Source: an uncultured Methanosarcinales archaeon
GTDB lineage: Archaea > Nanobdellota > Nanobdellia > Woesearchaeales > JACPBV01
Reading direction: 5' to 3'
NCBI GenBank assembly: GCA_964618315.1
Contig: CAZTWQ010000005.1
Span: 1 to 63,638 of the forward strand
DNA length: 63,638 bases
Positions 1 to 63,638 of this stretch are shown here, piece after piece. The notes under the pieces were generated by a model that saw only the letters and a program-made list of their open reading frames with translations, had not been told where the DNA came from and searched no databases. How positions within the stretch are numbered: position 1 is the first letter of the stretch; the number at the start of each line of letters is the position of its first letter. A program made the translations under genes and the position numbers.

Positions 1-455
1 GAAGCATGCAAAACATGAACTGGTCAAACAACGCAAACTTCTACAGAATGTTCTACTCAGCAACAGCATTTAATGGGAATGTGAGTAATTGGTATCTCGG
101 AGATGTCTCAACAGGAATGCAAGAAATGTTCCAATCAGCAACTGCATTCAACCAACCATTAACTAACTGGGATACATCAAAAGTAACAAGTATGAATGCT
201 ATGTTAAGAGGAACTTCTTTTGACCAAAATTTAGGAAATCTAAATGTTTCAGGGGTTACAGATTTTACCAACATGCTTTATCTTACACAAATATCAACAA
301 CCAATTATGACAATTTACTAACAGGTTGGGCAGCATTAGATACTCTGAGTTCATCAGAGGCATTTCATGCAGGAACTGCCACATATTGTTTAGGAGAAAG
401 TGCCAGAAATGACACATTAATTGATACATATAGTTGGACTATTACTGATGGAGGA
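1..455 (+). repeat. End of a DUF285/BspA-like surface-protein repeat tract (MFxxAxAFNxxxxxW units) with its capping motif
   Basis: MFYSATAFNGNVSNW, MFQSATAFNQPLTNWDTSKVTSM, then NYDNLLTGW...WTITDGG. Confidence 0.85.
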
Positions 456-3400
456 TATGATTGTACAGGAGTTGAAATTCCTGACACAACTTTCCCCCTA
501 ATTAATTTCACAAATCCAACTTTAGCAAATGGAAGTTCAACTACAAACACTTCAGTTGAGATTAATGTTTCAATTGTCGAGGCTAATTTGGATGAGGTTA
601 AGTATAATTGGAATGGAACTAACTTTACAATGTATAATGATAGTTTAGTTTTGATGATGAATTTTGATAATCGAAGTGCTTTGGGTGAGAATGATACACA
701 TGTTGTGGATATGAGTGGGAGTGGGAATAATGGGACATTTACAGGAGGGGTTTCTCTTGTATCTGGAAGATATGGAAGTGCTTATGATTTTGAAGGAACA
801 AGTGATATTCTAACTTTGGATTCTGGTATTTCTCTGGTAAATGATTTTACAATTTGTGCTTGGACAGAGTTTCCTTTGTCTGCTTCTGTTCATGGAGGTA
901 GAACTCTTACTCGAGGAAGTGATGAAGATCATCATATTTATGTTGATTCAAATGGGTATCTTGGAGTATATGATAATACTGGGGGAGATAACGTAGATTG
1001 TTCTCCAGTATTTGATACGGATTTTTATGATGGATGGTATCATCTTTGTGCGATTGGTACTGGAAGTCAAACGAATTTTTTTATTAATGGAAATAATAAA
1101 TGTAATTCTTCAGCGAAAACAGAAGGACAACTTCAATATATTGGAAATTTTCAATCAGGTTCTCAAGATTGGGGAGCAAACGTAGATGAATTTAGAATTT
1201 GGAATAGGTCATTATCCGTAGATGAAATATCCCAACAATATGCCTCAAACTTAAATAAGTTTAATCAAACACAATGGTATCTTTATGTTAATCAAAGTTT
1301 GAATGCTTCAACTGGATTAAGCGACGGGGATTATACTTATTTTGCTAGTGCTAAGGACGATGCGGGGAATGAGAATATTACCGAGACTCGGACTGTGACT
1401 GTTGCTAGTGCGGATGCGACGCTTCCATATTTCACAGACTCCACTCCAACTAATCAAACAATAGCGCAAGGTTCGGCTTTGAGTTATAATATAAATGCGA
1501 GTGACGAGACTGCTTTGGATTGTTTTGCTGTGAATGACACGACGAACTTTGCGATTAATTGTTCTGGTTGGTTGACTAATAATACTGTTTTAGGATTGGG
1601 ATTGTATAATTTGAATATTACTATAAATGATAGTTCTAATAATTTGAATAGTTCTTTGATGTGGGTTAATGTTACTGATCAGACTTTCCCACTTATAGAT
1701 TATGAATTACCTACTCGTGCAGATGGAAATGTGACTGGAGATACTTCGGTTGAGATTAATTTTAGTATTAATGAATTGAATTTGAATGAGGTAAAATATA
1801 ATTGGAATGGGACTAACTTTACTTTGTTTAATGATTCTCTTGTGCTGATGATGAACATGGATAATTTGAGCTCTTTGGGAGAGAACAATACTTATTTTTT
1901 AGATATTTCTACAAAGGACAAAAATGGGACAGGCACTGCATTTAATGGGGATGAGATAGTTGCTGGAAGGTATGGAAATGCTGTCAATCTTGACGGAAGT
2001 GATGATTATATAGCAGTTTCGGCAAGTACTGACTTTAATCTTGCTCGGGATTTTTCTATCTTGTTTTGGGCTAATATAAATTCTATAACTACTGCCAGAA
2101 TAGTAGGTTATTCAGGTTCAAATAACGGATTAGGATTAGGAAGTAATGCTGGATGGGGTAGTGGGGTAAGATTTAATTATTATGCTCAGTCTAGTGATTG
2201 GAATTCAAATGAATTAACTACTGTAGATACAGGTGAATGGCATTTCTATACAGTTACCAGGACAGGAACAACTGTAAATTATTATGTTGATGGTGAAGGA
2301 TATGGAACTTCAACAAGTACAAATGGATTTGGAGATTCTACATCCACATTTATGATAGGGAGAAGAGGTAATGGTGAGTTCTTTAATGGGAAAATAGATA
2401 ATCTGATTATAATGAATAGGTCTTTGGGTTATGATGCGATTCAGCAGCATTATATGAGCAATTTAAAAAAGATAAACCAGACAAATTGGGAGTTCTATAT
2501 AAATCAATCTTTGAACGCTACAGATAGTCTAGGTATAGGAACTTATACTTATCAAGCATATGCTTCAGATAGAGGGAGTAATTCTAATTCAACTGAAGAA
2601 AGGACAATAAATATAATCGCTCCAGATAATACTGCTCCAGCAATCAATTTTACAAGTCCGACTATTGCAAATGGGACTACACAACCTAATTCAGATATGT
2701 TGGTCAATATTTCTGCTACAGATGATAATCTTGTATCTATATTGTTCTTATTGTATAATGCGTCAAATGATGTTTTTGCTAATATTTCATCCAGTTCAAG
2801 TCCGCTTTATATGAATCTGAGCTTTAATCTATCTAATCCAAGTTTTGAATCAGGTAGTGTGGGGGCTTGTGCTGATTTCTGGATTTGTACAGGGGATGCA
2901 GAGATTGCAAGTAAAACAGATGGGCAAGGCTGTACTGCACCAAGCAATGGAGATGGAACTCAATACATGAAAGCTGGTTGCGATGATTCTAAAGGGGTGG
3001 CCAATTCTTCAAATTTTGTTCTGCCTAGTGGAATGGATCATATTGATTTCTTAAGGGCAGGTGGGGCTGGTTCTGGAAGTGGATTATATGTTTATGATGC
3101 ATTAGATAATTCATTGTTGTGTTCTGCAGAAGATGGAACAGATTCTGATAGTTTCTTTGCGAATTCTTGTACTGGTCTTTCTTCTCATGCAAACAAATTG
3201 GTCTATATAAGCATAGTCGATGCCCAATCAGGGGGATGGGGGAAGACATATGTTGATAATATCAGCCTTGAAGATAGTTCTGGAAATCTTTTAGGTTCTG
3301 TTTTATCTGATGGTGTTTATTATCTGAATGGTTCTGCAACAGATCTATTAGGAAATGTTAATTTTACTGAATTAAGAACTGTGACTATAGGTGATGTTGA

Positions 3401-6400
3401 TGGTGGAACTCCGCCACCAAGTATAAACTTCACATACCCAACACTTTCGAATGGAACTGTGCAGGAAGCAACATATGCGGAGATTAATATATCAATAACA
3501 AAGGCCACTAATGAAATAATGGAAGTTATCTATGATTGGAATGGTACGAATTATACCATGTATAATAGGAGTCTTGTGTTGATGTATAACTTTGATAATG
3601 TTAGTGCAATAGGTGATGCAGGAAATAAAACAGTGGATGTTAGTTTGGATCAGCAGGAGAATGGAACTTGTATGCAGACTGGTTATGGGATTGCTTGTAA
3701 TTATACTGCTGGAAGGTATGGTATGGCACTTACGTTTAATGGTACGCTTTATGTTAATGTTACTGGATTAAGTAATATGGGTGTTACACAGACTATGTGG
3801 GTTAAGAATAGTTCTGATGTTTTATGGCATTATGTAGCTAATGTTTCTGGTACGCAGTATATTGATGGTGTTGTTGGTAGTAATAGGGTTATTCCTATAG
3901 CTAATTCTTCTAAGAATGTATTGATAGGACAAGGTTATAGTGGGTTGATAGATGAAGTTAGGATATGGAACTATTCATTGTCTAAATTGGAGATTTATCA
4001 ACAGTATGTGTCGAACTTGAATAAGTTTAATATGACTAATTGGTATCTGTATGTTAATCAGTCTTTGAATGCTACTGATGTTTTAACAGTTGGGGATTAT
4101 ACTTATCAGGCATATGCTGGTGATAATGAAGATAATTGGAATTCTACTGGAGAGAGAGTATTGACAATAAATATACCTGATACAATCAAACCAACATATA
4201 CAAGCTTTGTTAATAATGGAACTGCTACTAAAGTAAATGGTGTTGTGAATTGGTCGATAACATTAATAGATGAAACGGCATTATCAGGCTATCTTTTTGC
4301 CCATAATAATTCAGGGACATTAACTAATGGTTCTTATACTTTACTAAGTGGATCAGAATTACCAGTTGATGAAACAGTTACAATAACTTTAACTCAAGGA
4401 AATTATATCTGCGGTCAGTATTGGTTTAATGATAGTTCTGGTAATGTTAATAGTACGTTGCTTACTGAATCTGGTGCTTGCTTTACTGTTAATAATAGTG
4501 CTCCAAGTACAACATCAATTATATATCCAGTAAATAGTGGAAGCTATATAGATATTCCTTACATAAATTATTCTTCTAGTGATGCTGATTCAGATAGTCT
4601 GACTTATAATATTTATATTAATGGAACATTGAACATTTCTGGAATAAGCAGTAATGTAACTGATTGGAATGCTAGTGATGGTTATTATAATTTGACTGTA
4701 AGTGCTAGTGATGGAATTGATTCAAGTGCTAATTCCAGTTCTGTGTTGTTCAGGCTGGATACAATAGAACCTTCATTTAGTGGGAATAAAGATAATGCTT
4801 CAGCTACTACTTATAATGGGACTGATGTACAGTTGAATCTTACTATAAGTGATAGTGATTTGGCTTTCTATAGGCTAACTACTAATGATACTTCAGATGG
4901 AACATGGGTTAATGAAAGTTTGATCAGTGGGTCTGTTGGGGCTATATTTAATTATTCTATACATAACCTTAGCTTAACTGGAGGGACATTAGGATGGAGA
5001 GTATGGGCTAATGATTCAGCTGGTAATGCTAATGTTTCATCTATATATACTTTGGTTGTTCAGGATAATACGCCCCCAGTAGTGCTTACACCGCCACCTG
5101 GAATAAACTTTACAACTCCAACACCTTCTGATGAGGCTGTGCAAGCAACAACAAATGTTGAAGTTAATGTTTCCATAATAAGAACAAATCTGACTATTGC
5201 TGAGGTTGTTTATGATTGGAATGGTACGAATTATACCATGTATAATAGAAGTCTTGTGTTGATGTATAACTTTGATAATGTTAGTGCAATAGGTGATGCA
5301 GGAAATAAAACAGTGGATGTTAGTTTGGATCAGCAGGAGAATGGAACTTGTATGCAGACTGGTTATGGGATTGCTTGTAATTATACTGCTGGAAGGTATG
5401 GTATGGCACTTACGTTTAATGGTACGCTTTATGTTAATGTTACTGGATTAAGTAATATGGGTGTTACACAGACTATGTGGGTTAAGAATAGTTCTGATGT
5501 TTTATGGCATTATGTAGCTAATGTTTCTGGTACGCAGTATATTGATGGTGTTGTTGGTAGTAATAGGGTTATTCCTATAGCTAATTCTTCTAAGAATGTA
5601 TTGATAGGACAAGGTTATAGTGGGTTGATAGATGAAGTTAGGATATGGAACTATTCATTGTCTAAATTGGAGATTTATCAACAGTATGTGTCGAACTTGA
5701 ATAAGTTTAATATGACTAATTGGTATCTGTATGTTAATCAGTCTTTGAATGCTACTGATGTTTTAACAGTTGGGGATTATACTTATCAGGCATATGCTGG
5801 TGATAATAGCAGCAACTGGAACAGTACTGAGGAGAGGTCTTTGACAATCAGTTCTGTATCTGATACTACTTCACCATATTATGATAACTTTGCGAATAAT
5901 GCATCTACAGTTACAAAGATAAATGGGGTTGTGAACTGGAGTATAGACTTATCTGATGGTGTTGGGTTGAATAGTTATTATTTTGCGCATAACCAGACTG
6001 GAACATTATCGAATCAGACACTAAATGGACTGACAGAAACATCTCAGTTTATTAATTACACATTGACAATAACTCTGACACAAGGCAATAATATATGCGG
6101 TCAGTATTGGTTCAATGATACAAGTGGTAATGCAAACCAAACAGGTCTAAGCTGTTTCACAGTGGCAAATACTGCACCTACTACACCAACTATAATATAT
6201 CCTGTAAATCTTAACAATTATACTGACATACCTTACATAAACTATTCAAGTTCAGATGCTGATTTAGATGCTATAACTTATAATGTGTATATCAACGGAA
6301 GTTTGAATATAACTACAACCACTAATGTAACAGATTGGAATGCTTCTGATGGATTTTATAATTTGAGTGTTACTGCTTCAGATGGAACTGATTCAAGTTC

Positions 6401-9400
6401 AAATAGTACAGTAGTACAGTTTACACTAGATACTACTGCCCCTGTGATATCAAACTTAAGAAATACTTCAACTACAAATCAAAGTTCATTCATAGAATGG
6501 TCTTGTAATGAAGCATGTAATTATACTATATTGTGGTATAATTCAACAGATTTAGTTGGAACGATAAATAATAATACATTTGCTACTTCACATAATCCTT
6601 TCTTAAGCTCATTAGTGAACTCAACAACATATATTGTGAACCTTACTGTTTATGATAATATGGGTAGTTCTACTGTCAATAATACGTTTAACTTTACTAC
6701 TGATAAAAATGAGATAATAGTTGATTCAATACCACCATATTATGATAACTTTGCGAATAATGGTTCTACACTGACAAAGATAAGTGGTGTTGTGAATTGG
6801 AGCATAGACTTATCTGATGGTGTTGGGTTGAATAGTTATTATTTTGCGCATAACCAGACTGGAACATTATCGAATCAGACCCTTAAATCGTTATCTGGAG
6901 AAAGTCAATCTGTAAATGAAACTTTGGCAATAACATTGACTCGTGGGAATTATATCTGTGGTCAGTTCTGGTTTGATGATGCAAATGGTAATGTTAATAG
7001 TACATTACTTACTGAATCTGGTGCTTGCTTTACTGTTGCAAATACTGCACCAATTACACCTACGATATATTATCCTGTAAGTGGTGGGAATTATAGTGAT
7101 ATTCCATATATTAACTATTCAAGTAGTGATGCTGATGGTGATTCATTAACTTATAATGTTTATATTAATGGAAGCTTGAATGTAAGTACTTCTGTGAATA
7201 TAACAGATTGGAATGCTTCAGATGGTTATTATAATTTGACAGTTAGTGCTTCAGATGGTATTGATAGTTCGGCTAATTCGAGCGTAGTAGAATTCAGGTT
7301 GGATACAATACAGCCTTCATTTAGTGGAAATAAAGATAATGCTTCATCTACAACCTATAATGGAACTGATGTGCAGTTGAATCTGACTATAAGTGATGAT
7401 GTTGGGTTGAGTAATTATAGGTTAACTACTAATGATACTTCAGATGGAGTATGGGTTAACCAAACTCTAAATTCAGTAAACGGAGCGACTTCAGTAACTG
7501 CTATCTTCAACTACTCAATACATAACTTCTCAATACTAGGTGGTACCCTTGGATGGAGAGTATGGGGTAATGATTCTGCTGGAAATGTAAACGAATCAGA
7601 AACTTACACCTTAACAGTTCAATCAAATGATAATATAAACCCTAATTCAAACATAACAATAAACAACACGCAACCAAAGATAAACGACATAGTAAATATT
7701 TCCCTAAACGTATCAGACAACATAGCATTAAGCTCCTGCTGGTTCTACAACAATATGTCTAAGCAAAACTCTTCAGCAATAAGCATTTCAGGAACATCAG
7801 ATCATGATACATGCTTTAATGTAACAACAATAAATGTTTCACAAGGCAAACAAGTATTATTCATAGGCTATGTCAATGACACCGGTGGAAACCTAAACTC
7901 TTCACAAACAACAATAACGGTTGCTAATACAGCCCCTATAACTCCTAGTGTGAGTTATCCAGTTAGTGGTGTAAATTATACTGATATTCCTTATATCAAT
8001 TATTCTTCAACAGATGCAGATAGTGATAGTCTGACTTATAATGTTTATATCAATGGAACATTAAATATATCTGGAATAAGCACAAATGTAACTGATTGGA
8101 ACGCTTCGGATGGTTATTATAATTTGACTGTATCTGTTTCTGATGGAAGTGATAGTTCTGCTAATTCTAGTGTAGTAGAGTTCAGGTTGGATACAATAGA
8201 ACCTTCATTTAGCTCTAACCAAACAAATGCTTCAGCTACTACTTATAATGGGACTGATGTGCAGTTGAACTTAACTATGAGTGATGGTGTTGGGTTGAGT
8301 TATTATAGGTTAACTACTAATGATACTTCTGATGGAAGTTGGGTTAACCAAACATTAACAACTGCAAACGGAGCAACTTCTGTAGGGGCTATCTTCAACT
8401 ACTCAATACATAATTTCTCAATAATAGGTGGGACATTAGGATGGAAGGTATGGGGTAATGATTCTGCAGGTAATGTAAACGAATCTCAGGTATTTACTTT
8501 AACAATTCAATCGAATGACAACACTAATCCACAATCAAACATAACAATTAACAACACTTCGCCAAAGATAAATGATGTAGTGAATATTTCAATGAATGTA
8601 TCTGATAATGGAGCTTTAGATTATTGCTGGTTCTACAACAATATGTCTAAGCAAAACTCTTCAATAATAAGCTTGTCTGGAACATCGGATCATAGCCTAT
8701 GCTACAACACAACAACAATAAACTTAACACAAGGTAAAAACATATTATTCATAGGCTATGTAAATGACACAACAGGAAACTTAAATTCTTCAAGAACTAC
8801 AATAACAGTAGCTAATACAGCACCGACAACGCCTACTGTTATTTATCCTGTTAGTGGTGGAAATTATACTGATATTCCTTATATTAATTATTCTTCGTCT
8901 GATGCAGATGGTGATAGTCTGACTTATAATGTTTATATTAATGGGAGTTTGAATGTAAGTAGTTCTGTGAATATAACTGATTGGAATGCTTCAGATGGTT
9001 ATTATAATCTGACTGTTTCTGCTTCTGATGGAATGGATAGTTCTGCTAATTCCAGTTCTGTGTTGTTTAAGCTGGATAGTACTGATCCAAGTGTGAATAT
9101 TATCTATCCATCTGATGATCTTAATGTTTCTTCTAATTCCATTGACTTTAATGCTACTGCGAGTGATGGTCTGGCTTCTTCGCTTACTTATTATTGGATT
9201 GTGAATGGAACATTGAACAGTACATCTGTTGATAGCAATAGTACGTTTAATGCAAGTGATGGATATTATAATTTAACATTGCTTGTGTCTGATGGACTAA
9301 ATAATGGGTCTGATACTGTGTTGTTTGCTTTGGATACTACTGCGCCTTTAGTATCAATCACAACCCCATTAGATGATACAATTGCTGGATGGAATGTGTT

Positions 9401-47907: not shown

Positions 47908-47908
47908 A

Positions 47909-50603: not shown

Positions 50604-50608
50604 ATTAA

Positions 50609-52125: not shown

Positions 52126-52243
52126 TTTTGTTTGCTTCGCTCTCAAAAGTTTTTGGATGAAAATCCTAAACCTTTTGTTTGCTTCGCTCCCAAAAGTTTT
52201 TGGATGAAATTCCTAAACCGTTTTGAAATCAAAGATTTCAAAA
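52126..52243. repeat. Two tandem 47-bp repeats (52126-52172, 52173-52219), each with two hairpins, followed by a perfect 10-bp-stem hairpin (52221-52243)
   Basis: TTTTGTTTGCTTCGCTC(T/C)CAAAAGTTTTTGGATGAAA(A/T)TCCTAAACC twice, then TTTTGAAATC-AAA-GATTTCAAAA. Confidence 0.9.
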
Positions 52244-52275
52244 AGTATATAAGTAAGCTATTTTAAGTTATTTCT

Positions 52276-53046: not shown

Positions 53047-53671
53047 TATAGTTAGTTAATTCACCTATTTTTTCTATCTTTATTGTTATTTTGTCCCCTT
53101 TGTGCATTGGGCCTATTCCAGGGGGAGTTCCAGTTGAGATAATGTCTCCTTTGTTCAATGTCATAACATTAGAGATAAATGATACTACTTCTTCTATCTG
53201 GAATATGAAATCTGATGTGTTTGAGTCCTGAACTATCTTGTTGTTTAGTATTGATTGTATCTTTAAGTTGTTTGGGTTTTTGATCTTATTCCAGGGTACT
53301 AGTTTAGGTCCTATCGGGCAGAATGTGTCAAATGATTTTGCCCTTGTCCATTGGTTGTCAAGTTTTTGCAGGTCTCTTGCTGTTACATCGTTTAAGCAAG
53401 TAAAGCCTTGAATATGTTTTTTTACTTCTGATTTTTTTATGTTTTTGCATCTGCCTTTTATGACTAATGCTAGTTCTGCTTCATAGTCAACTCTTTTTGA
53501 TTGTTTTGGGTAAGTTATAGTGTCTTTGTTTCTGATTATTGCTGTGTTTGCCTTTAGAAATATTATTGGGTGGCGAGGGGTGTTCATGTTTAATTCTTTG
53601 GCGTGTAAATGATAGTTTAGACCTACGCAGATTATTTTAGATGGAATTTGTTTTAGAAAGGTTGGAATCAT
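53039..53671 (-). CDS. Fumarylacetoacetate hydrolase family protein
   Basis: KIICVGLNY..H, DYEAELALVI, NDVTARDLQ, W.RAKSFDTFCPIGP, GDIISTGTP.GIG. Confidence 0.93.
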   Translation of the reverse strand: MIPTFLKQIPSKIICVGLNYHLHAKELNMNTPRHPIIFLKANTAIIRNKDTITYPKQSKRVDYEAELALVIKGRCKNIKKSEVKKHIQGFTCLNDVTARDLQKLDNQWTRAKSFDTFCPIGPKLVPWNKIKNPNNLKIQSILNNKIVQDSNTSDFIFQIEEVVSFISNVMTLNKGDIISTGTPPGIGPMHKGDKITIKIEKIGELTNYIK

Positions 53672-53699
53672 TTTATAGAATAAATAATTTAATGGTATA

Positions 53700-54151
53700 A
53701 ATATTTTGCTAATAGTGAAAGGATAATAAGTTAAAATGAAGGGATAATATAAAACTAGTAATAAATATAAATAAAAGATTAATAAAAAATAAATTGATAA
53801 TAAAGAAACTACTAATGATTAAATAATAAAAGACTAATAAAAAAATGAATTAATAAAAATAAAAGAAAAAAGAATAAAAACATAATAGAAATAAGGGAAT
53901 AATAAATAATAGAAATAAAACGACTACTAATAATCAATAAATAAAGAGACTAATGATTTAATATTAATAAAAGAATAATAAAAATAATAATCAATAAAGG
54001 ATAAATAAAATAAATAATAAAGACTACTGATAAATGTTTATAAAAGAGTAATAAAGAATAAATTAATAAAAAAATTAATAAAGGATAAATAAAATAAATA
54101 ATAAAAATAAAGCCTAGAGATAATAAAAATTAATAAAAATAAAAGAAAAAA
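53700..54151. repeat. About 450-bp non-coding, extremely AT-rich, A-skewed low-complexity tract with internal repeats
   Basis: Roughly 10% GC in sampled lines; 29-bp direct repeat at 53993-54021 and 54077-54105; recurring GACTA(CTA)AT motifs. Confidence 0.85.
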
Positions 54152-55153
54152 TTATTTCTTTTCAAACAAAGCCCTGATCTCTCGTCCAACAACTTCTATT
54201 GGATGTGAACCTAGTTCTTCTCTTTTCCTTAGAAGATTTGGTTTTCCTGCTGCGTTTTCAGCAAGCCAGTCTTTTGCAAAGGTTCCGTCTTCTATTCTTT
54301 TTAGGGATTCTTTCATCTTTTCCTTTACTTCTGGACCTATGATCTTTGGACCATTGTAGTATTCTCCGAATTCTGCAGTATTTGAGATAACTGCATTCAT
54401 CTTTTGGATGCCACCTTCAAAAATTAAATCTACGATTAGTTTTAATTCATGCAAGCATTCAAAATATGCCATTTCTGGAGGATAACCTGCTTCTGTTAGT
54501 GTTTCAAAACCATATTTGATTATATCAACACATCCACCGCATAGAACGTTTTGTTCTCCAAAAAGATCTTCATATGTTTCTTGTTCAAATGTGCATTCTA
54601 AAACACCTGCTTTTGTGAAATGCATTGCTTTTGCCATTGCTAAAGCGATGTTTCTTGCATTTCCTGAAGCGTCTTTTCCGACAGCAACCAGACCTGGAAC
54701 TCCGAATCCTGCTTTGTAAGCTTTTAATTCCTCTGTTGCTGGTGCTTTTGGAGCTACCATTATAACATCAACACCTTCTGGGGGTGTGATCTGTTTGTAA
54801 ACTATGTTAAATCCATGGCTGCATGACAGTACTTTTCCTTCTTTCATGTGCTGTTCGATCTGTTCTTTGTAAACAGGGCCGTGAAATTCGTCTGGAAGAA
54901 GCATATGAATTATGTCTGCCTTTTGGGCTGCATCAGATATTGTCATAACATCAAAACCATCTTCTTTTGCTTTGTTCCATGATGGATTAGGTTTGTCACC
55001 TAAATTTTCTGTTTCTCCAATTATAACATTTACGCCTGATTCTTTCATCATTATTGCTTGTGCGCTTCCCTGACTGCCGTATCCTACAACAGCCACTGTT
55101 TTTCCTTCTAATGCAGCAATATCTGCATCCTTATCGTGTAATAAATTTACCAT
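54152..55153 (-). CDS. ilvC: Ketol-acid reductoisomerase
   Basis: VAVVGYGSQG.AQA, LLPDE, HGFNI, MVAPKAP, DLFGEQ.VLCGG, AYFECLHELKLIVDL, SNTAEFG. Confidence 0.96.
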   Translation of the reverse strand: MVNLLHDKDADIAALEGKTVAVVGYGSQGSAQAIMMKESGVNVIIGETENLGDKPNPSWNKAKEDGFDVMTISDAAQKADIIHMLLPDEFHGPVYKEQIEQHMKEGKVLSCSHGFNIVYKQITPPEGVDVIMVAPKAPATEELKAYKAGFGVPGLVAVGKDASGNARNIALAMAKAMHFTKAGVLECTFEQETYEDLFGEQNVLCGGCVDIIKYGFETLTEAGYPPEMAYFECLHELKLIVDLIFEGGIQKMNAVISNTAEFGEYYNGPKIIGPEVKEKMKESLKRIEDGTFAKDWLAENAAGKPNLLRKREELGSHPIEVVGREIRALFEKK

Positions 55154-55187
55154 TTTTTTCTTGCCTCCATACTTTGTTTGTTAATAT

Positions 55188-55478
55188 TTACATAAGCTTT
55201 TGCAAAGCTTGTTTTCCAGTCATTGTTTCATCAATTCCAAGTTCTTTTGCTTTGCTGCTTACTAATTTTATTGTTGCTGTCAACATATCATCAAAGCTAT
55301 TTACCCCTGTCACTATAGCTAATGCGTCGCCTAGTTTGTCTGCTGTTTCTGTGCTAAAATAACCACAACCAAGCATGCCTTTTTTTGCTTTGATCAAAAG
55401 TACTATTGAATTTTCTGTCTTTACAGAAACTACATCCAGTTCGTTTCCATCTAGGTTTATTTTTCCTGCTTCTATCAT
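55188..55478 (-). CDS. YunC/DUF1805 family protein
   Basis: LLIKA.KG.LGCGYF...A.KLGDA.AIVTGV.SF.DML.A.I..VS..A..LGI...MTG..AL; ATG 55478 sits just after the leuB stop. Confidence 0.75.
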   Translation of the reverse strand: MIEAGKINLDGNELDVVSVKTENSIVLLIKAKKGMLGCGYFSTETADKLGDALAIVTGVNSFDDMLTATIKLVSSKAKELGIDETMTGKQALQKLM

Positions 55479-55479
55479 T

Positions 55480-56604
55480 TTATTGTAGTTTAGCTTTAAC
55501 TGCATCGCCCATATCTGAGCAGGTATTTGTTCCCCCTAGATCTTTTGTTTTTATTTTCCCTTCTTTTAATACTTCTTGGATAGCATCCACTATTTGGTTG
55601 TGAGCGTTAGCTTCTCCGATTTCATCTAACATCATTGCTCCTGCCCAAATAGTTGCTAAAGGGTTTGCCCTGTTCATACCCTTGTATTTTGGAGCAGAAC
55701 CATGGATAGGTTCAAACATACTGATTCCAGCTGGATTGATGTTTCCGCCTGGTGCTAAGCCTAAACCTCCCTGGATCATCGCTCCAAGGTCTGTTATTAT
55801 GTCACCAAACATATTTGGTGTTGTAACTACTTTAAACCATTCTGGGTTTTTGACAAACCACATAGTTATAGCGTCAACAAACATATATTCTGGCTTGATT
55901 TTTGGATAAGATTTTCCTATTTCTACTACTCGCTCTCTCCAGAAACTATAGATGTCTGACAATACATTTGCTTTGTCTACAAAATAGGCTGTATCTGTAT
56001 TTTGTTTTTTTGCCAGTTCAAATCCATATTTTATTACACGATCTGCACCGTTCTTGCTCATAACACCTATCTGATATGCTATTTCATCAGAATTTTCTAT
56101 ATCCAGATTGAATTTTACATTCCACATATCCCTTACAACTTCTAATGATTGTTTGGTGTTTCCAGGTTGAGCTCTATTGCCTATGCCAACATAGAAATCT
56201 TCTGTGTTTTCCCTTACTACTGTAAAATCTATGTCTTTTGAAGTTTTGCCTTTTAATGGACAATCTACGCCTTCAAGTAGTTTTATAGGTCTTAAGTTTA
56301 CGAACTGATCAAAATAGAATCTTGTTTTTAATAGGATTCCTTTTTCTAAGATTCCTGGCTTGCATCTTGGGTCGCCTAAAGCACCTAAGTAGATTGATTT
56401 GCAAGTATCTTTTATTTCCTTTAGTGTTTCTTCGGTTATTAATTCCCCTGTTTTAAGGTATTTTTCTGCTCCGTTGTCATATTCTGTCCAGTCAATATTA
56501 AAATTGTTTAATTCTGCTGCTTTTTCTATTACTTTAACTCCCTCTGCTACTATCTCAGGCCCTATTCCATCACCGGGCATCTTTGCAATCTTATATGTTG
56601 TCAT
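55480..56604 (-). CDS. leuB: 3-isopropylmalate dehydrogenase (isocitrate/isopropylmalate/tartrate dehydrogenase family)
   Basis: [50 protein letters not shown]; lies in an operon with leuCD. Confidence 0.85.
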
Positions 56605-56623
56605 TTTCTAACCTCGCCTATTT

Positions 56624-56836
56624 TTATTTACTCCTGTTTAGATCATGTAGATGTTCATGTACCTCTTGAAGGTGCTTATCCAATAATCCCGTATGGTTGT
56701 CTAACCTACATATATGATCATCAAGCTTTTCTGTATGGTCATCCATGACCTTCATGTGCTTTACCATCTTAAATAAAACTACAAGCTCTACTGCAATCAA
56801 TACAAGCTCTACATATAATACTATATCTTCAAACAT
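56624..56836 (-). CDS. Small membrane-anchored His-heptad coiled-coil protein
   Basis: 70 aa from ATG 56836, overlapping the leuD stop; N-terminal hydrophobic helix, then heptads with His at every d position. Confidence 0.7.
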
Positions 56837-57341
56837 TGTCAGCCACAATACCCTTATTTTCCTTTATGTAGTTGAGCAGGCCTTTTGAACCTATAAGCTT
56901 CAATGCAAATTCTGACAGAGGTACAAAGGAATAAGATTCATCTTTTGTTATATTCAGGATTTTGCCCTTTTTTAGGTCTATCTCTAATTCGTCGTTGTTT
57001 CCTACTTTATCTGCTATATCTTTACATTCTATTGCCAAAAAACCATTGTTTATCGCATTTCTGTAGAATATCCTTGCAAAGCTATTTGCTATTACTGCTT
57101 TTACACCAGAACCCCTTAATGCCCAGATAGCATGTTCTCTAGATGAACCACATCCAAAATTCTCTTTCGCTACTATGAAGTCTCCTTTTTCTACTTTTTT
57201 TACAAACTCTGTATCTAAGTCTTCCATTGCGTGTTTTGCAAGTTCTTCTTCTTTATCGCTAGTCAAGTATCTAGCTGGAATGATCTCATCTGTATTTATG
57301 TCGTCTTTTTTGTAGACGTGTGCTTTTCCTGTAAGTTTCAT
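56829..57341 (-). CDS. leuD: 3-isopropylmalate dehydratase small subunit
   Basis: [38 protein letters not shown]. Confidence 0.95.
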
Positions 57342-58612
57342 TTTAAATATCTCCTTGGATCTGCAATCTTTCCTTCTATAGCTGAAGCTGCTACAATTGC
57401 AGGGCTAGCTAAGTAAACTTTAGACTTGGGAGAGCCCATCCTTCCAACAAAGTTTCTATTTGTTGAAGTAATGCATTTTTCTCCTTCTGCCAATATACCC
57501 ATGTGACCTCCTAAGCATGCACCGCATGTAGGTGTTGAGATTGTTGCTCCTGCTTTTGTGAATATATCAAATAGGCCTTCTTTCATCGCCTGGTTCCATA
57601 TATCTGTTGTTGCAGGTACGACTATCATCCTTGTTCCTTCTTTGACTTTATTTCCTTTTAATATCTCTGCAGCTATCCTCAAATCTTCAATTCTTCCATT
57701 AGTACAGCTACCTAAATAAGCTTGATCTACATTTATGTCTTCCATCTTTTCAATTTCTGACATTGTCTTTCCGTTTGATGGGAGATCTGGAAAAGCTACA
57801 ATAGGTTCAAGTTTTGAAGCATCATATTCTTTTGTTTCTATGTAATTTGCATCTTCATCTGATCTTATGACTTCAAATTTCTCTTTAGATCTGGATTTAA
57901 CATATTCCAATGTTTTTTCGTCTGGTTCTATGATTCCAGATTTACCACCAGCTTCAATTGCCATATTAGTTATAGTCATTCTTGCCTCTACAGATAAGTC
58001 AGATATTGTTGAACCTGTAAACTCCATTGCCTTGTACAAAGCTCCGTCTACACCTATATCTCTGATAATTGTCAATATTATATCTTTTGAGTAAACGCCT
58101 TTTGGCAATTTTCCATCGATTACAAATTTGATTGTTTCAGGTACTTTAAACCATAGTTCTCCCGTTGCTAATGTAGCTGCGATGTCTGTTGAACCTACAC
58201 CTGTTGAGAAAGCACCTAATGCTCCGTGGGTGCATGTATGTGAGTCGCCAGCAACTATTGTCGTTCCAGGGATAACATGGCCTTGTTCTGGCAATATTGC
58301 ATGACATACTCCGTGCCTGCCTATGTCGTAGAAATTCTTTATTTTGTGTTTTTTTGCCCATCTTCTGATTCTTGCTACCATCTCTGCAGATTTGATGTCT
58401 TTATTAGGAACAAAATGATCTGGAGTTATAACTACCTTGTCTGGATCGAAAACTTTGTCCATGCCTGCTTTTTCTAACATATCTATTGCAGGGGTTGTTG
58501 TTACGTCGTGGCACATGACAAGATCTATCTTAGCGTTGATTAATTCACCTGGTTTTACAGATTCTTTTCCTGCATGTTTTGCCAGGATCTTTTCAGTTAT
58601 AGTCATTCCCAT
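57338..58612 (-). CDS. leuC: 3-isopropylmalate dehydratase large subunit (short archaeal/HacA type)
   Basis: DSHTCT.GA.GA...[41 protein letters not shown]. Confidence 0.95.
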
Positions 58613-58728: not shown

Positions 58729-59460
58729 ATGGTTGAATCATTATTGCATAAAGCAGGGTTAACTGAGAATGAATCAAAGATATATTTATTGCTTCTTGAA
58801 ACAGGAGAAGCAATTGCATCTGAAATAGCCAAGAAAACAGAAATATCTAGGCCACATGTCTATGATTCTATAAATAGATTGATGGACAAAGGTCTTGTCT
58901 CTTATGTAATAAAAAATAATAAACGCTACTTTAAATCTGCAAATCCAAAAGAACTAATAAACTATCTAGAAGAAGAAAAAGATAAGATAAATGACAAACA
59001 AAAAGAAATAAAACAGATCATACCTACACTTTTAAAGATCAGAAAAGAAAAGAAGACAGAGACATCTATGGAAGTTTATGAAGGAAAAGAAGGGTTAAAG
59101 ACAGTTCTTATGGATATTGTCAATTACGGAAATGATTTTGTCGCTTTTGGAGCTACGCATAAGTTTGAAGAGGTTTTACCTATATTTTCAAAGATCTTTG
59201 TGAAAAGAAGGGAACGAAAAAACATACATGGTAAAATTATAGTGTGCAAGGGAGAAAATCCAATCGAAACAAAACTGAATCATTATAAATGGATACCTGA
59301 AGAATATTCACTGCCTAGTTCTACAATAGTATATGGAGACAAAACTGCAACAATAATCTGGTCAGGTGCACCATTAGGGATAATAATCAACAGTAAAGAA
59401 GTCGCTGATTCTTATAAATCGTATTTTAAGCTACTCTGGAAGATTGGAAAAAAGAAATAA
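58729..59460 (+). CDS. TrmB family transcriptional regulator
   Basis: GLTENE.KIYL.LL..G...ASEIAK...I.R..VYD....L..KGLV HTH, plus C-terminal effector domain (YEG.EG.K.V). Confidence 0.9.
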   Translation: MVESLLHKAGLTENESKIYLLLLETGEAIASEIAKKTEISRPHVYDSINRLMDKGLVSYVIKNNKRYFKSANPKELINYLEEEKDKINDKQKEIKQIIPTLLKIRKEKKTETSMEVYEGKEGLKTVLMDIVNYGNDFVAFGATHKFEEVLPIFSKIFVKRRERKNIHGKIIVCKGENPIETKLNHYKWIPEEYSLPSSTIVYGDKTATIIWSGAPLGIIINSKEVADSYKSYFKLLWKIGKKK

Positions 59461-59690: not shown

Positions 59691-59697
59691 GATATAT

Positions 59698-59850
59698 ATG
59701 GTAAAAGTAGTTGTAAATAATGGACAGTATAAGATAACTATTCCGAAAGATATAGCGGAAGCTCACGGTTGGAGTTCTAAAACAAGATTAAGATTTGTAG
59801 AGGATAGTGAGGGGAATATAACACTAAAAGAGCTTAAAATTAAAAAATGA
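59698..59850 (+). CDS. AbrB/MazE/SpoVT-like swapped-hairpin DNA-binding protein (50 aa; not in the ORF track)
   Basis: MVKVVVNNGQYKITIPKDIAEAHGWSSKTRLRFVEDSEGNITLKELKIKK matches the GQ-x-x-I-T-I-P-K-x-I-x-x-x-x-G...L-x-F...I-x-L pattern; its stop overlaps the next ATG (ATGA). Confidence 0.8.
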   Translation: MVKVVVNNGQYKITIPKDIAEAHGWSSKTRLRFVEDSEGNITLKELKIKK

Positions 59851-62800
59851 TTAGACTGCAGAATAAGGACAGAGAAGAAGCTTTGACTAATCTTAAGTAT
59901 ATCAAAGAGAGCAGGAAACAAGTTAATGAAGAGATCTCTGTAGCTCAGGCTGGTTTGTTGAAAGGGTTGATTACTCACAAAGAGTATGATGAGATTGTAA
60001 ATACTCAAATTGATGGTAAGAGCAGACTAGGATGGGTTGAGTTCTGCGATAGTTATATCAAGAGGCATAAGAATGATTATGTTGGTAGTTTGTTGAAAAA
60101 GAGTATTCCTGTGCTGGGTGTTTTATTGCTGCTCGTGATTGTAGGGGTTTGGTTTAAACCGTCTTTTACTGGTTTTGCTACTGTTACTTCTAGTTATAGT
60201 TATACTGATAATGTTGATTTAGATGTTAATTCTTCAGGTAATTATACATGGGTTATGGATAATGTTGGTTCTTTAGAATCGTTTAAGATAAAGGGTAAGT
60301 TTAAGGATTCTGGTATTGTTAGAGTTTATTTATCTAGTGGTGTTGATAAGTATCTTGTGTTTGATTCTAACAATTATAGGGATAAAAATGGTTTAGATGT
60401 TATTACTGGGTTGGTTGTTGGTGAAAATGAATTAATAAATGGGGAAGAATCAATAACAAATAATAATTCTAATGAAGAAGAAAATGACTTAATAAATGAA
60501 AATTTAATAACCAATGAAACTGATGATGAATCAATAATTGATGAAAATTTAATAAATGATGAAATAATAAATAAAGAGATAATACTAAAAACAAATGGTG
60601 GTGGGCTTAAGTCTGTGAATGATATTTTCTCGTTTTCTCTTGGGCCTTCTTTTAGTTGGGATGTTGATTCTTCTAAAGTGTGTACTAAGTGGGAAGTTAA
60701 TTCAGAGATTGCTGCTTGTTATGGTAGTTCTGGGTGTTGTTCATTCTTAGATATGGCTTCAAGTGGTTCTTTTGATGATGAATTTTATCTTTCGTATGGT
60801 AGGTATGGTTCTTTGCTTTCGAATGAAGTTAGTGCTCAGGTTATTTATTATGATATTGACTTATCTGTTCCTTATTCTGACATTAGTTATAGTAATGAAG
60901 TTGGATTAGATGCTGAGTTTTATGAGTATATCTCATTTAGTGATGAGTGTGTTTCTACTTGTTTGGTTTCTTTGAATGATAGTAGTTATAAGTTAATTTT
61001 TGATATTGAGGATAGTTCTGTTGAGATTGATTCTGTTTCCTATAGTGTTGAGCAGGATGTTAGTGGCGGTTCGAATACAGCCCCTATTTTAGTTAAAGAT
61101 ATTCCTGATATGGGGATTGATGATAATGGAAGATATAGTTTAGATTTAACAGACTATTTTGAAGACGATGATAAATTAACGTATTATTCACCTGGAATTA
61201 AAGGGGTAATCGTAATTAATGAACAAAACAACATTGTTTCTTTTGTTCCTTACTTTGATTACACAGGTAAACAAACTGCAACAATAATAGCTAAGAATGG
61301 ACTTAGTTTAACAGAAAGCAACAAATTTACTATAACAGTTGGGTCAGAAGTTATCAAAAAAACATATAATGAGCCACCTAAAAGGGTAAAGAATATTTCT
61401 GATATTACAATTGGAGTTAATGGTGAGTATAAGCTAGATTTAAGTCCGTATTTTAATGATGAAGATCCATTAAGATATAGTTATTATCATATTGATGATT
61501 TAACTATTACATTTGAAGGTTCTATTGCTATCATTAAGCCTGATTCTGGTTTTAGTGGTGATAAGTTTATTTTCTTTACAGCAAATGATACTAGTTATGG
61601 TACTCCTAGTAATGTGTTTAAGGTTAGTGTTGTAGATGGCTATGTTTCTAATGATTCTTCTAGAAATGAATCCATTGTCCAAGTTATGGCTGTAATAAAT
61701 GAACCAGTCAAGTGGGTTAAGAAAGTAGAACTAGATGAAATAAAGGATAATGTTTTAATTAACATAACCTCAGAAGCAATTGATATCAATGTTAAAAAGG
61801 TAATTAATAACATTGAATTAAACATAAGCGAAGATAAATTAAAAGTAAATGGTATCGATGGAATTAAAAACATTACAGAGTATGTTGCTTTGCAGAAGCT
61901 TGATTATATAGAAGAAAGGGTCGATACTTTAAATGAAAGGAAAAGGGGCCTCACTAGTGCTGAGACCAGGGAGATCAATGAAGAACTGTTAGAATTGAAG
62001 GAAGAAAGGAATGCCTTAACTGGTTATGTTATTGGTTATAAAAGTGGAAATGGGTGGTTGACCAGATTATTTGAATGGTTATTTAGGACAGATATCACAG
62101 GTTATGCTATATTAGAGGAAAATGTCAAGGAAACAAATATTACAGAATTAATAATTGAAGATAGTGTTTCTTCTGTAATAGTTGAGTATTATACTTCTGC
62201 ACCCTATGCAGAAGAAAATAAAATAAGTTCAATTAAAAAAGAAGTTACTATTATTGGTCCTGATGAAGTTCATTATACAGAAATATTAGCTTATTCTGAA
62301 CTTCCTTCAAAAGTATCTAGTTTAGAGAAAGTTAGATTATACTGGAATGTTAATAATAGTAGAGTTTCTGTTGAGTATGAAGCTTATGATCAAGATAATG
62401 ATGGTCTATATGATTATATTGAATGGGTTGTACCTCATTTGAGTGTACAAAACTATGAGATTATCTTGATAAGCAAAGCAGACCATCTTAATTCTAATAG
62501 AGAATTTATAAAAGATGTTTATGATGCTGTTAAAGAAAGAGATTATGGATACGCAAATATTTCAGATGGAGAATATCTGAGAGTTACATTTGAACAAAAA
62601 CTTGATTCGTCTAAAGATATTACTCTTTATGCAAGAGGTTCTGGAGTTGTTGAAGTGTATGAAGAAAATGAAAATGAATTATTGTTGGATTATAATATTA
62701 GTAAAGATAAAGAATATAAACAATACTTAACCGAGTTAGAAGAGAACCAAGATGTTTTTGATTTAAAAGTTATAGGTAATATTGAGTTTGATTATATTGT

Positions 62801-63638
62801 TGACCCTGTAGAACCTGACAAATATTTCATATCAACATGGAACACTTCAAAAACATCTTCAGGCTCAAGTGATGCAAGCTCTGTTCAACTCCCTTTAGAT
62901 GACGAGGGCATTTATAACTTTACAGTATCTTGGGGCGATGGAACAGAAGATAACATAACCGAATATAATCAAGCAGAAGTTACACATAGTTATTCCGAAG
63001 AGGGAACGTACACCATAAACATTTCAGGCATAATTGAAGGGTGGCAATTTAACAATGGAAGAGATAGGCTTAAACTAATAGATATTAGTCAATGGGGAGA
63101 TTTTAAACTAGGTTCAACCGGGGGATATTTTTATGGATGTACTAACTTAAACATTTCGGCAACTGATATCTTAAACACAAGCGGAACCACTTCTTTCATT
63201 AATGCGTTTAGAATTAGTGGGGTTTCAACCATTCCTAGTCTTGGAAGTTGGGATACTTCTGCGGCCCAAGACATGTCCCATATGTTTTATAATTCAGATA
63301 ATTTTAATGAAAATCTTACCGGATGGGATGTTTCAAATGTAACTACTACGTATAGAATGTTTTATTCAGCAGAAGCATTTAATGGAAGCATGCAAGATAT
63401 GAATTGGTCAAGTAATGCAAACTTTGCAAACATGTTTGAATCTGCAACAGCGTTCAACGGCAACGTAACCAACTGGCACATGGGAGATATAGAAGCAACA
63501 ATGGTAAACATGTTTGAAAACGCAGATGCATTCAACCAAGACATACACACCTGGGACACATCAAAAATAACAACCACATATCAAATGTTTTATTCAGCAG
63601 AAGCATTTAATGGAAGCATGCAAGATATGAATTGGTCA
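59847..63638 (+). CDS. N-terminal part (1264 aa, 3'-truncated) of a giant surface protein: cytoplasmic leader, TM helix, Ig-like/cadherin-like modules, conserved ...FDYIVDP cassette, PKD-like domain, DUF285 repeats
   Basis: Translated by hand, stop-free to the window end: MIRLQNKDRE...PVLGVLLLLVIVGVWFKPSFTGFA...YDYIEWVVPHLS...EFDYIVDP...FTVSWGDGT...VTHSY..EGTY...MFYSAEAFNGSMQDMNWS. Confidence 0.92.
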   Translation, partial: MIRLQNKDREEALTNLKYIKESRKQVNEEISVAQAGLLKGLITHKEYDEIVNTQIDGKSRLGWVEFCDSYIKRHKNDYVGSLLKKSIPVLGVLLLLVIVGVWFKPSFTGFATVTSSYSYTDNVDLDVNSSGNYTWVMDNVGSLESFKIKGKFKDSGIVRVYLSSGVDKYLVFDSNNYRDKNGLDVITGLVVGENELINGEESITNNNSNEEENDLINENLITNETDDESIIDENLINDEIINKEIILKTNGGGLKSVNDIFSFSLGPSFSWDVDSSKVCTKWEVNSEIAACYGSSGCCSFLDMASSGSFDDEFYLSYGRYGSLLSNEVSAQVIYYDIDLSVPYSDISYSNEVGLDAEFYEYISFSDECVSTCLVSLNDSSYKLIFDIEDSSVEIDSVSYSVEQDVSGGSNTAPILVKDIPDMGIDDNGRYSLDLTDYFEDDDKLTYYSPGIKGVIVINEQNNIVSFVPYFDYTGKQTATIIAKNGLSLTESNKFTITVGSEVIKKTYNEPPKRVKNISDITIGVNGEYKLDLSPYFNDEDPLRYSYYHIDDLTITFEGSIAIIKPDSGFSGDKFIFFTANDTSYGTPSNVFKVSVVDGYVSNDSSRNESIVQVMAVINEPVKWVKKVELDEIKDNVLINITSEAIDINVKKVINNIELNISEDKLKVNGIDGIKNITEYVALQKLDYIEERVDTLNERKRGLTSAETREINEELLELKEERNALTGYVIGYKSGNGWLTRLFEWLFRTDITGYAILEENVKETNITELIIEDSVSSVIVEYYTSAPYAEENKISSIKKEVTIIGPDEVHYTEILAYSELPSKVSSLEKVRLYWNVNNSRVSVEYEAYDQDNDGLYDYIEWVVPHLSVQNYEIILISKADHLNSNREFIKDVYDAVKERDYGYANISDGEYLRVTFEQKLDSSKDITLYARGSGVVEVYEENENELLLDYNISKDKEYKQYLTELEENQDVFDLKVIGNIEFDYIVDPVEPDKYFISTWNTSKTSSGSSDASSVQLPLDDEGIYNFTVSWGDGTEDNITEYNQAEVTHSYSEEGTYTINISGIIEGWQFNNGRDRLKLIDISQWGDFKLGSTGGYFYGCTNLNISATDILNTSGTTSFINAFRISGVSTIPSLGSWDTSAAQDMSHMFYNSDNFNENLTGWDVSNVTTTYRMFYSAEAFNGSMQDMNWSSNANFANMFESATAFNGNVTNWHMGDIEATMVNMFENADAFNQDIHTWDTSKITTTYQMFYSAEAFNGSMQDMNWS
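63250..63638 (+). repeat. DUF285 repeat tract with a 228-bp (76-aa) three-unit period; 55-bp perfect repeat at 63356-63410 and 63584-63638
   Basis: Direct comparison; the window ends exactly on the last base of the 55-bp repeat. Confidence 0.9.

What the first reader, a model, noticed from the sequence alone, without database searches (positions are those of the whole stretch)
1..63638. Both window ends lie in the same DUF285 super-repeat: one split gene of more than 15,600 aa, or twin giant paralogs flanking the amino-acid cluster
The first 26 nt (GAAGCATGCAAAACATGAACTGGTCA) match the last 26 nt (GAAGCATGCAAGATATGAATTGGTCA) at 23/26, in the same frame. Both encode an unusual three-unit repeat (GSMQxMNWS.NANF / MF.SATAFNGNV.NW..GD / MF..A.AFNQ...WDTSK). 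The right end supplies what the left gene lacks (start codon, promoter, N-terminal TM, start of the tract), and the left end supplies the capped end of the tract. The window also stops exactly on a 55-bp perfect repeat, as expected from a de Bruijn break at k=55 (inference). So this is either a circular or mis-resolved unit with a single gene, or two closely related giant genes about 16.7 kb apart. The SRP RNA gene favours a chromosomal location.
Basis: partly seen in the sequence, partly recalled or inferred. Interest (0 to 1): 0.7.

Follow-up and report, generated by a model that had tools for sequence, protein, structure and literature searches.

The report
Two paralogous giant archaeal surface genes
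Both ends of this contig fall in the same protein repeat because two related but separate giant cell-surface protein genes of a marine DPANN-type archaeon each carry it and short-read assemblers break there; it is not one split gene or a circle.

Summary
The first and last 26 nt match 23/26 in the same codon phase. The last 55 nt are an exact copy of 63356-63410. Both ends encode a 76-aa (228-bp) super-repeat made of three ~25-aa DUF285/PARCEL units. The ends are homologous but do not overlap: identity over the unit is only about 70%. Five independent assemblies of the same population (99.6-100% identical to window 48729-63638) read through the right-hand tract. After 4-5 units it exits into its own capping domain, which is 77% nt and 74% aa identical to the window's left end. 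It then continues with a different architecture to a stop, giving a 4,044-aa protein (3,968 aa with one unit fewer). One scaffold contains the whole window and runs 65 kb further, so the unit is not circular. The left ORF (14,386 codons, C-terminal membrane anchor) is therefore a second gene cut at its N-terminus by the contig end. Contig depths in seven runs suggest it has its own N-domain, 72% identical to the right gene's. A complete 3,038-aa relative shows the family plan: one tract per gene. Verdict: paralogs, not twins, and an ordinary repeat-induced assembly break. The left gene is still one of the rare archaeal genes above 10,000 aa.

The parts
1..43163 (+). Left giant ORF. It has 14,386 sense codons in frame from nt 3, is open at the window start (no true start codon) and stops at 43163. 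It is the C-terminal bulk of a giant surface protein.
   Evidence: Pfam finds DUF285, several Laminin_G_3, Big_13 and MAM. The protein is rich in T, N and S, with 998 N-x-S/T sequons. Other assemblies agree at 99.8-99.9% identity.
1..190 (+). Last DUF285/PARCEL super-repeat of the left gene, cut by the contig start. Positions 13-132 form a 120-mer seen at about 3-7x single-copy depth.
   Evidence: The 120-mer has no 31-mer in common with the right-hand tract of L001-L007 and matches L012 9831-9950 exactly.
190..480 (+). Capping domain that closes the left gene's repeat tract (left residues ~60-160, ending near GGYDCTG).
   Evidence: It is 74% aa identical to the right gene's own cap. At nt level it is 76.9% identical to the right gene's cap and 90.4% to the cap of L012.
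42960..43004 (+). Single C-terminal transmembrane anchor of the left protein (residues 14320-14334), followed by a lysine-rich tail.
   Evidence: Hydropathy scan and sequence. The complete relative in L012 has the same kind of end.
43178..43451 (+). Archaeal SRP RNA gene, 15 nt after the left gene's stop.
   Evidence: Rfam RF01857, 139.5 bits against a gathering score of 96.5.
43731..58612 (-). Branched-chain amino-acid cluster between the two giant genes: class IV aminotransferase, a 743-aa ORF, Mem_trans, IlvD, a 417-aa ORF, FAH, IlvC, DUF1805, LeuB, LeuD and LeuC, plus an MBL-fold gene on the + strand.
   Evidence: Relatives keep this gene order, and their fetched loci show no match to either giant gene.
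58729..59460 (+). TrmB-like regulator. It served as the anchor protein for finding other assemblies.
59698..59850 (+). 50-aa MazE/AbrB-like ORF whose stop overlaps the right gene's ATG (ATGA).
   Evidence: Pfam PF04014, 28.4 bits; sequence.
59847..63638 (+). Right gene: the first 1,264 codons of a protein that is 4,044 aa in other assemblies. The N-terminal membrane segment is at 60102-60155.
63195..63638 (+). Start of the right gene's DUF285/PARCEL tract. It includes the 55-nt exact repeat (63356-63410 = 63584-63638) on which the contig ends.
   Evidence: Logan contigs break at 63385, and tract pieces stand at about 0.7-4.4x depth.

Best explanation
The window carries parts of two distinct members of one family of giant archaeal cell-surface proteins. 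They lie in the same orientation, 16.7 kb apart, on a chromosome of a marine DPANN-type (Nanoarchaeota/Woesearchaeota-like) archaeon. Shown here: each family member has one DUF285/PARCEL tract near its N-terminus. That tract is a run of 76-aa super-repeats (three ~25-aa units each) closed by a conserved cap. The right gene (ATG 59847) has an N-terminal membrane segment, a ~1,100-aa N-region, 4-5 super-repeats, its own cap, a beta-helix-like region and LamG-type modules, and totals 4,044 aa. The window holds only its first 1,264 codons, because the assembler stopped at a 55-nt exact repeat. The left ORF is the rest of a different, much larger gene (at least 14,386 aa) whose start, N-region and most of its tract lie beyond the left contig end. 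Inferred: the left gene has its own N-domain, one that is identical to L012 8454-9055 and 72% nt identical to the right gene's. Its tract probably holds several near-identical units, which would explain why no short-read assembly gets through it. Function is inferred from domain content only. The protein would be exported and anchored by the terminal membrane segments, heavily N-glycosylated, and would present repeat, lectin-like (LamG), Ig-like and MAM modules for attachment to other cells or surfaces.
For: Other assemblies and the right-hand gene:
- Nine loci from other assemblies (three assembler naming styles, several samples) match window 48729-63638 at 99.6-100%.
- L001, L003, L004 and L005 continue through the tract into sequence only 77% identical to window 1-469 and 71% identical to window 1458-1914.
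- The 5 kb after the cap is 100% identical in all five assemblies (L001-L005). Start-to-cap distances differ by whole 228-bp units (4596 against 4368 nt).
- Called products of 4,044 aa (three assemblies), 3,968 aa (one unit fewer) and 2,607 aa (after an N gap) all point to the same stop.
- The right cap is 74% aa identical to left residues 1-160. After it come ~640 aa with no counterpart in the left ORF, then modules at 33-43% identity.

Linear context:
- Scaffold_79 begins at about window position 5, contains the whole window and is 128,945 bp long. Its giant-gene product of 12,814 aa starts at the scaffold's first bases.

Family plan:
- A complete 3,038-aa relative in a 1.11-Mb contig (L012) has an N-terminal membrane segment, an N-domain 61% identical to the right gene's, one tract, a cap 77% aa identical to the left ORF's start, LamG modules and a C-terminal anchor.

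Depth evidence for the left gene's own N-domain:
- In seven runs the 602-nt contig on L012 8454-9055 has a depth close to the sum of the window-type cap contig and the L012-type cap contig. Examples: 38.9 against 13.6+21.2; 49.6 against 25.4+27.3; 41.7 against 12.6+31.2.
- A variant branch leaving that N-domain contig (10.6/13.2/26.6/17.4) tracks the window's single-copy depth (12.1/14.9/26/18.4).
- That N-domain is 72.3% nt identical to the right gene's.
Against: - No read or contig was seen that physically links window position 1 to upstream unique sequence. The left gene's N-terminus is inferred from depth arithmetic on k=31 Logan contigs and from a relative.
- In the low-coverage run X11 the depth sum rule does not hold.
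- The excess depth of the 120-mer could come from a co-occurring relative rather than from tandem copies, because another genome (L012) carries it exactly.
- The last ~840 aa of the 4,044-aa product were not seen; only its recorded length was.
- Function rests on domain content alone. No RNA run holds the sequence.
Confidence: 0.88

Rival explanations
1. One gene of more than 15,600 aa, split because the 63.6-kb unit is circular or mis-resolved. In this model the right end supplies the start and the left end supplies the rest.
For: The 26-mer match is in the same frame and the two ends carry complementary features (start and membrane segment on the right; cap and C-terminal anchor on the left).
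Against: - The ends are only about 70% identical beyond the 26-mer, so they do not overlap.
- Five assemblies give the right gene its own cap and its own stop.
- Contigs run 25-65 kb past the right end.
- No 31-mer of window 1-230 occurs in the resolved right-hand tract.
- The SRP RNA gene and a biosynthetic cluster that relatives keep in the same order argue for a chromosome.
Confidence: 0.03
2. The read-through in the other assemblies is itself a repeat-induced misjoin. The right N-region would belong with some other cap, possibly the window's left end, and the '4,044-aa gene' would be a chimera of two paralogs.
For: The tract is repetitive. Copy number differs between assemblies, and two of the five are scaffolds with N gaps inside the tract. 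At least three caps and three N-domain copies exist in these metagenomes, so the pairing is not fixed by counting alone.
Against: - Three gap-free contigs (two MEGAHIT-style k141 contigs and one JGI contig) make the same join with an identical downstream 5 kb.
- The right-hand units diverge progressively from one another (92, 85 and 79% identity to the window's unit), which long k-mers can resolve.
- The depth sum rule pairs the other N-domain with the window-type and L012-type caps.
- The complete relative L012 shows that N-domain type and that cap type joined in one gene.
Confidence: 0.06
3. The window-type and L012-type caps are alleles of one locus in two co-occurring strains, not two genes in one genome. 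The population would then hold two family members per genome here rather than three.
For: The two caps are 90.4% identical and share flanking k-mers on both sides: the 120-mer upstream and the 129-nt piece at window 434-562 downstream. Their depth ratio varies between runs from 1.05 to 2.5.
Against: Downstream single-copy depth (window 627-1500) equals the window-type cap depth alone, so the L012-type branch continues into different sequence. The rest of the window shows no second haplotype at 95% or more in the regions laid.
Confidence: 0.25

Closest known systems
PARCEL / DUF285 repeat proteins (Pfam PF03382; named 'BspA family leucine-rich repeat surface protein' or 'PARCEL repeat' by NCBI; Roske et al. 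2010, PMC2996958)
   Same: - A ~25-residue amphipathic unit in tandem, variable-number arrays.
- Found in membrane-targeted proteins of unknown function.
- The reverse strand of the tract stays open.
- There are signs of exchange between genomes and shuffling within them. Here a 1.83-kb cassette is 100% identical to another genome's gene.
   Different: - The host is an archaeon, and the tract is a small N-proximal module of proteins of 3,000 to more than 14,000 aa rather than the bulk of a lipoprotein.
- The units are organised as a three-unit, 76-aa super-repeat with a conserved cap.
- The NCBIfam PARCEL repeat model scores just below its cutoff (28.5 and 24.8 against 30).
Giant genes of uncultivated prokaryotes (West-Roberts et al. 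2023, bioRxiv 10.1101/2023.11.21.568195; 'giant' there means more than 10,000 aa)
   Same: The left ORF exceeds 10,000 aa. It is fragmented by short-read assembly at internal repeats, which is the caveat that paper describes.
   Different: - That paper's giants are mainly from Omnitrophota, with enzyme-rich or dockerin-type content.
- It reports few archaeal cases, most of them in Asgard archaea.
- The gene here is DPANN-like and made of adhesion-type modules.
Giant surface proteins of other archaea: halomucin of Haloquadratum walsbyi and the SPEARE proteins of nanohaloarchaea (both recalled from memory; giant proteins in DPANN nanohaloarchaea are also mentioned in PMC10266531, which surfaced but was not read in detail)
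   Same: Very large, secreted or anchored proteins with repeats that take up several percent of a small genome. They are thought to mediate cell-surface properties or host contact.
   Different: No sequence relationship was shown here. No protease or nuclease domains were found in the window's proteins at E<=1e-5.

Membership tests
DUF285 / PARCEL repeat proteins | Match to Pfam PF03382 above the gathering score | tested here: met
   Left end 70 bits and right end 114 bits, cutoff 25.
DUF285 / PARCEL repeat proteins | A ~25-residue unit in tandem arrays of variable copy number | tested here: met
   The 76-aa period equals three units that share an MF..A.AFN core. Assemblies differ by whole 228-bp units, giving 4,044 against 3,968 aa. 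Part of this could be assembly collapse.
DUF285 / PARCEL repeat proteins | Match to the NCBIfam PARCEL repeat model TIGR02167 at its cutoff | tested here: inconclusive
   28.5 and 24.8 bits against a cutoff of 30.
DUF285 / PARCEL repeat proteins | Dyad symmetry of the coding DNA (PMC2996958) | tested here: inconclusive
   A minus-strand self-BLAST of the tract gave no hit. However, one reverse frame stays open: 201 aa in L003 and 73 aa at window 53-274.
DUF285 / PARCEL repeat proteins | Leucine-rich-repeat-like solenoid fold | not tested
   No structure was predicted. There is no PDB sequence relative at E<=0.01.
Giant genes (more than 10,000 aa, definition of West-Roberts et al. 2023) | One uninterrupted ORF longer than 30 kb | tested here: met
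   The frame is open from the window start (nt 3) to the stop at 43163, i.e. 14,386 sense codons (14,385 aa counted from the ATG at nt 6). It is intact in other assemblies except for a 10-N scaffold gap.
Circular element or contig with terminal overlap | Identical sequence at both ends, and no contig extending beyond them | tested here: not met
   The ends are 23/26 identical and then about 70%. Scaffolds and contigs extend 25-65 kb past the right end.
SPEARE-type giant proteins of nanohaloarchaea (definition recalled from memory: protease, adhesion and restriction-endonuclease domains) | Protease and endonuclease domains | tested here: not met
   Pfam scans of all 14,386 + 1,264 residues at E<=1e-5 found only DUF285, Laminin_G_3, Big_13 and MAM.

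The most novel reading that the evidence does not exclude
The N-domain/PARCEL-tract/cap 'head' behaves as an exchangeable cassette. A 1.83-kb stretch is 100% identical between these seawater populations and a gene in a different 1.11-Mb DPANN genome contig, whose flanks and remaining gene body are absent from those runs. Within the population the same head appears to sit on two different gene bodies, one of them the left gene of at least 14,386 aa. If so, marine DPANN archaea diversify giant surface proteins by recent recombination or transfer of heads between genes and genomes.
Probability: 0.3. Interest if true: 0.55.

Novelty: new member of a known kind. Interest (0 to 1): 0.3.

Why it matters
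The practical point is a caution. A contig that begins and ends in the same in-frame repeat invites a 'circular' or 'one huge gene' reading. Here the cause is a repeat family shared by neighbouring paralogs, and joining the ends would have created a false 15,600-aa protein. Biologically, the left gene is still at least 14,386 aa. If this genome is about the size of the 1.1-Mb contig of a relative (an assumption; the genome size was not measured), the gene takes up roughly 4% of it. Genes of that size are reported as rare in Archaea. Family members differ widely in length and body architecture while sharing a conserved head. That makes the locus a reasonable target for long-read work on how small symbiotic archaea vary their surfaces.

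Tried and rejected
- An exact 28-mer of window 192-219 found nothing in metagenome contigs or genome contigs.
- The search for related loci with left residues 61-560 found no copy above 61-72% identity, so the left end's upstream sequence was not recovered.
- Three homology searches (right N-region, left first 1,500 aa, L012 N-region) returned nothing above about 55% identity. None of the 241 retrieved proteins carries left-type units; the best is 55% over 64 aa.
- Look-ups of two antisense ORFs inside the left gene, tried as handles to reach scaffold starts, were not on record. The GTG-start aminotransferase was not on record either.
- No RNA run holds the sequence, so expression is untested.
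- TRF does not report the 228-bp repeat, because the window holds only 1.24 copies.
- No tRNA genes were found.
- I rejected the idea that the 3-7x depth of window 13-132 proves tandem identical copies in the left gene. The same 120-mer occurs exactly in another gene type.
Full report
**Observation.** The window is 63,638 bp at about 35% GC. One ORF is open from the window start to a stop at 43163, giving 14,386 sense codons from nt 3. A second ORF starts at ATG 59847 and runs off the right end after 1,264 codons. The first and last 26 nt match at 23/26. With up to 3 mismatches the 26-mer occurs only at positions 1, 63385 and 63613, against 0.00 expected by shuffling. Positions 1 and 63613 have the same codon offset. 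The last 55 nt repeat 63356-63410 exactly, so the period is 228 bp or 76 aa. Both ends hit Pfam DUF285 above threshold. The description is therefore correct. Past the conserved 26-mer, however, the two ends are only about two-thirds identical. They are copies of one repeat family, not an overlap.

**What lies beyond the right end.** I looked up the TrmB-like protein (58729-59460) in public assemblies and obtained nine loci from several samples and assemblers. They match window 48729-63638 at 99.6-100%. Three contigs without gaps (L001, L004, L005) and two scaffolds with 100-N gaps (L002, L003) continue past window position 63638.
- After 4-5 super-repeats, the tract exits into sequence only 77% identical to window 1-469 and about 71% identical to window 1458-1914.
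- In translation, the right gene has its own last unit and its own cap, followed by beta-helix-like repeats that have no counterpart in the left ORF.
- The 5 kb after the cap is 100% identical in all five assemblies. The distance from start codon to cap differs by whole units, 4596 against 4368 nt.
- The recorded products are 4,044 aa (three assemblies), 3,968 aa (one unit fewer) and 2,607 aa (after an N gap). All imply the same stop.

**Linear context.** Scaffold_79 is 128,945 bp. Its coordinates are offset from the window's by -4, so it begins at about window position 5, contains the whole window and runs about 65 kb further. Its giant-gene product (12,814 aa, then 1,518 aa after a 10-N gap) begins at the scaffold's first bases. 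No assembly I could reach gets through the left tract. One scaffold (scaffold_199) appears, from its coordinate offset, to reach about 0.6 kb further left, but I could not fetch that part. The archaeal SRP RNA gene lies 15 nt after the left gene's stop. The ilv/leu cluster keeps its gene order in relatives at 74-90% aa identity, and the fetched loci of those relatives show no match to either giant gene. This is chromosomal DNA, not a circular element. The closest relatives are MAGs labelled Nanoarchaeota, Woesearchaeota or 'Methanosarcinales' (that last label is automated and doubtful). No genome of the same species was found.

**What lies beyond the left end (inferred).** In Logan k=31 contigs of eight seawater and marine metagenome runs, window 160-463 and 627-1500 stand at single-copy depth. 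Window 13-132 is a 120-nt contig at about 3-7x that depth. It shares no 31-mer with the resolved right-hand tract.

That 120-mer is exactly present in L012. L012 is a locus from a 1.11-Mb contig that encodes a complete 3,038-aa family member. The protein has an N-terminal membrane segment, an N-domain 61% identical to the right gene's, one DUF285 tract, a cap 77% aa (90.4% nt) identical to the left ORF's start, LamG modules and a C-terminal anchor with a basic tail. It shows the family plan: one tract per gene.

Laying the runs on L012 gave four results:
- L012's flanks and the rest of its gene are absent from these runs, but L012 8454-10284 is present at 100% identity.
- The 602-nt N-domain contig has a depth equal, within about 10% in most of seven runs, to the sum of the window-type cap contig and the L012-type cap contig.
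- The 129-nt piece at window 434-562 shows the same sum.
- A variant branch leaving the N-domain contig tracks the window's single-copy depth at ratios of 0.88-1.02.

The simplest reading is that the gene carrying the window's cap, that is the left gene, has this N-domain upstream. The domain is only 72.3% nt identical to the right gene's. This is depth arithmetic, not physical linkage. It fails in the 5x run X11. It also cannot tell whether the L012-type copy is a third paralog or an allele in a co-occurring strain.

**What the genes are.**
- The left protein is rich in T, N and S, has 998 N-x-S/T sequons and a single C-terminal membrane segment (residues 14320-14334) followed by a lysine-rich tail.
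- Pfam finds DUF285, several Laminin_G_3, Big_13 and MAM.
- NCBIfam relates the repeat to PARCEL repeat surface proteins, just under the repeat model's cutoff.
- No PDB sequence relative exists at E<=0.01.
- The right protein has a hydrophobic segment at residues 86-103. Its ATG overlaps the stop of a 50-aa MazE/AbrB-like ORF.

I infer exported, membrane-anchored, glycosylated adhesion-type surface proteins. Nothing here tests that.

**Comparison with known families.** The repeat is the PARCEL/DUF285 element described by Roske et al. 2010 (PMC2996958): 25-residue units, variable copy number, membrane-targeted carriers, and spread by transfer and intragenomic shuffling. The 100%-identical cassette shared with an otherwise absent genome fits that picture. 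At 14,386 or more residues, the left gene meets the '>10,000 aa' definition of giant genes in West-Roberts et al. 2023. That paper reports few archaeal cases and warns that short-read fragmentation at repeats hides or splits such genes. The locus is therefore a new member of known kinds.

**Verdict.** The single-gene/circular reading is rejected. The paralog reading is accepted, with two corrections: the two genes are not twins, and the family likely has further members in the same community. The finding itself is an ordinary repeat-induced assembly break. The residual interest lies in the size of the left gene and in the cassette-like head.

Noticed in passing
window 59646-59688 (upstream of the 59698-59850 ORF): The 10-bp palindrome TTAGTACTAA occurs only twice in the whole window, at 59646 and 59679. 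The two copies flank a TATA-like AAATATATAG about 30 nt upstream of the MazE/AbrB-like ORF that is translationally coupled (ATGA) to the right giant gene. They look like operator sites around an archaeal promoter.
   Followed up: partly
L012 8454-10284 (Ga0209042_1000001) compared with runs X1-X7: A 1.83-kb stretch (end of the N-domain, the PARCEL tract and the cap) is 100% identical between this 1.11-Mb contig and contigs of seven seawater runs. The locus flanks and the rest of the gene are absent from those runs at 90% or more. This suggests recent exchange of the cassette between genomes.
   Followed up: partly
window 53-274 (-) and L003 14862-15467 (-): The reverse strand of the DUF285/PARCEL tract stays open (73-aa and 201-aa ORFs), as described for PARCEL coding DNA. 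A minus-strand self-BLAST showed no plain inverted repeat.
   Followed up: partly
window 52126-52225: A 47-bp tandem repeat (2.1 copies, 94% identity) lies in the divergent intergenic region between the 417-aa ORF and the MBL-fold gene.
   Followed up: no
window 53822-54151: A 330-bp stretch of degenerate AT-rich repeats (AATAATAAA-like) lies between the FAH-family gene and ilvC.
   Followed up: no
window 34743-36155 and about 38420-38430: The left gene has an internal 844-bp repeat at 85.5% identity (offset 573 bp). Separately, one scaffold has a 10-N gap and another assembly's contig starts near 38,420-38,430, which points to a second assembly-breaking spot inside the gene.
   Followed up: no
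window 43731-58612; L052, L121: A DPANN-like archaeon carries a full ilv/leu gene cluster. Relatives keep the same gene order (74-90% aa), but their fetched loci show no match to the flanking giant genes, so the giant genes appear to be lineage-specific additions.
   Followed up: partly
L013 1-16982 (Ga0257125_1000523): A contig from a sister sample is one uninterrupted 5,660-codon ORF across the whole fetched locus. It has beta-helix repeats like the right gene's post-cap region, and one Logan loose end from the runs matches it. This is another giant family member in the same community.
   Followed up: no
window 40533-40616 (residues 625-652 of the left gene's last 1,500 aa): NCBIfam 'acidic double-disulfide repeat' scores 65.6 bits against a cutoff of 41 in the C-terminal part of the left protein.
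   Followed up: no
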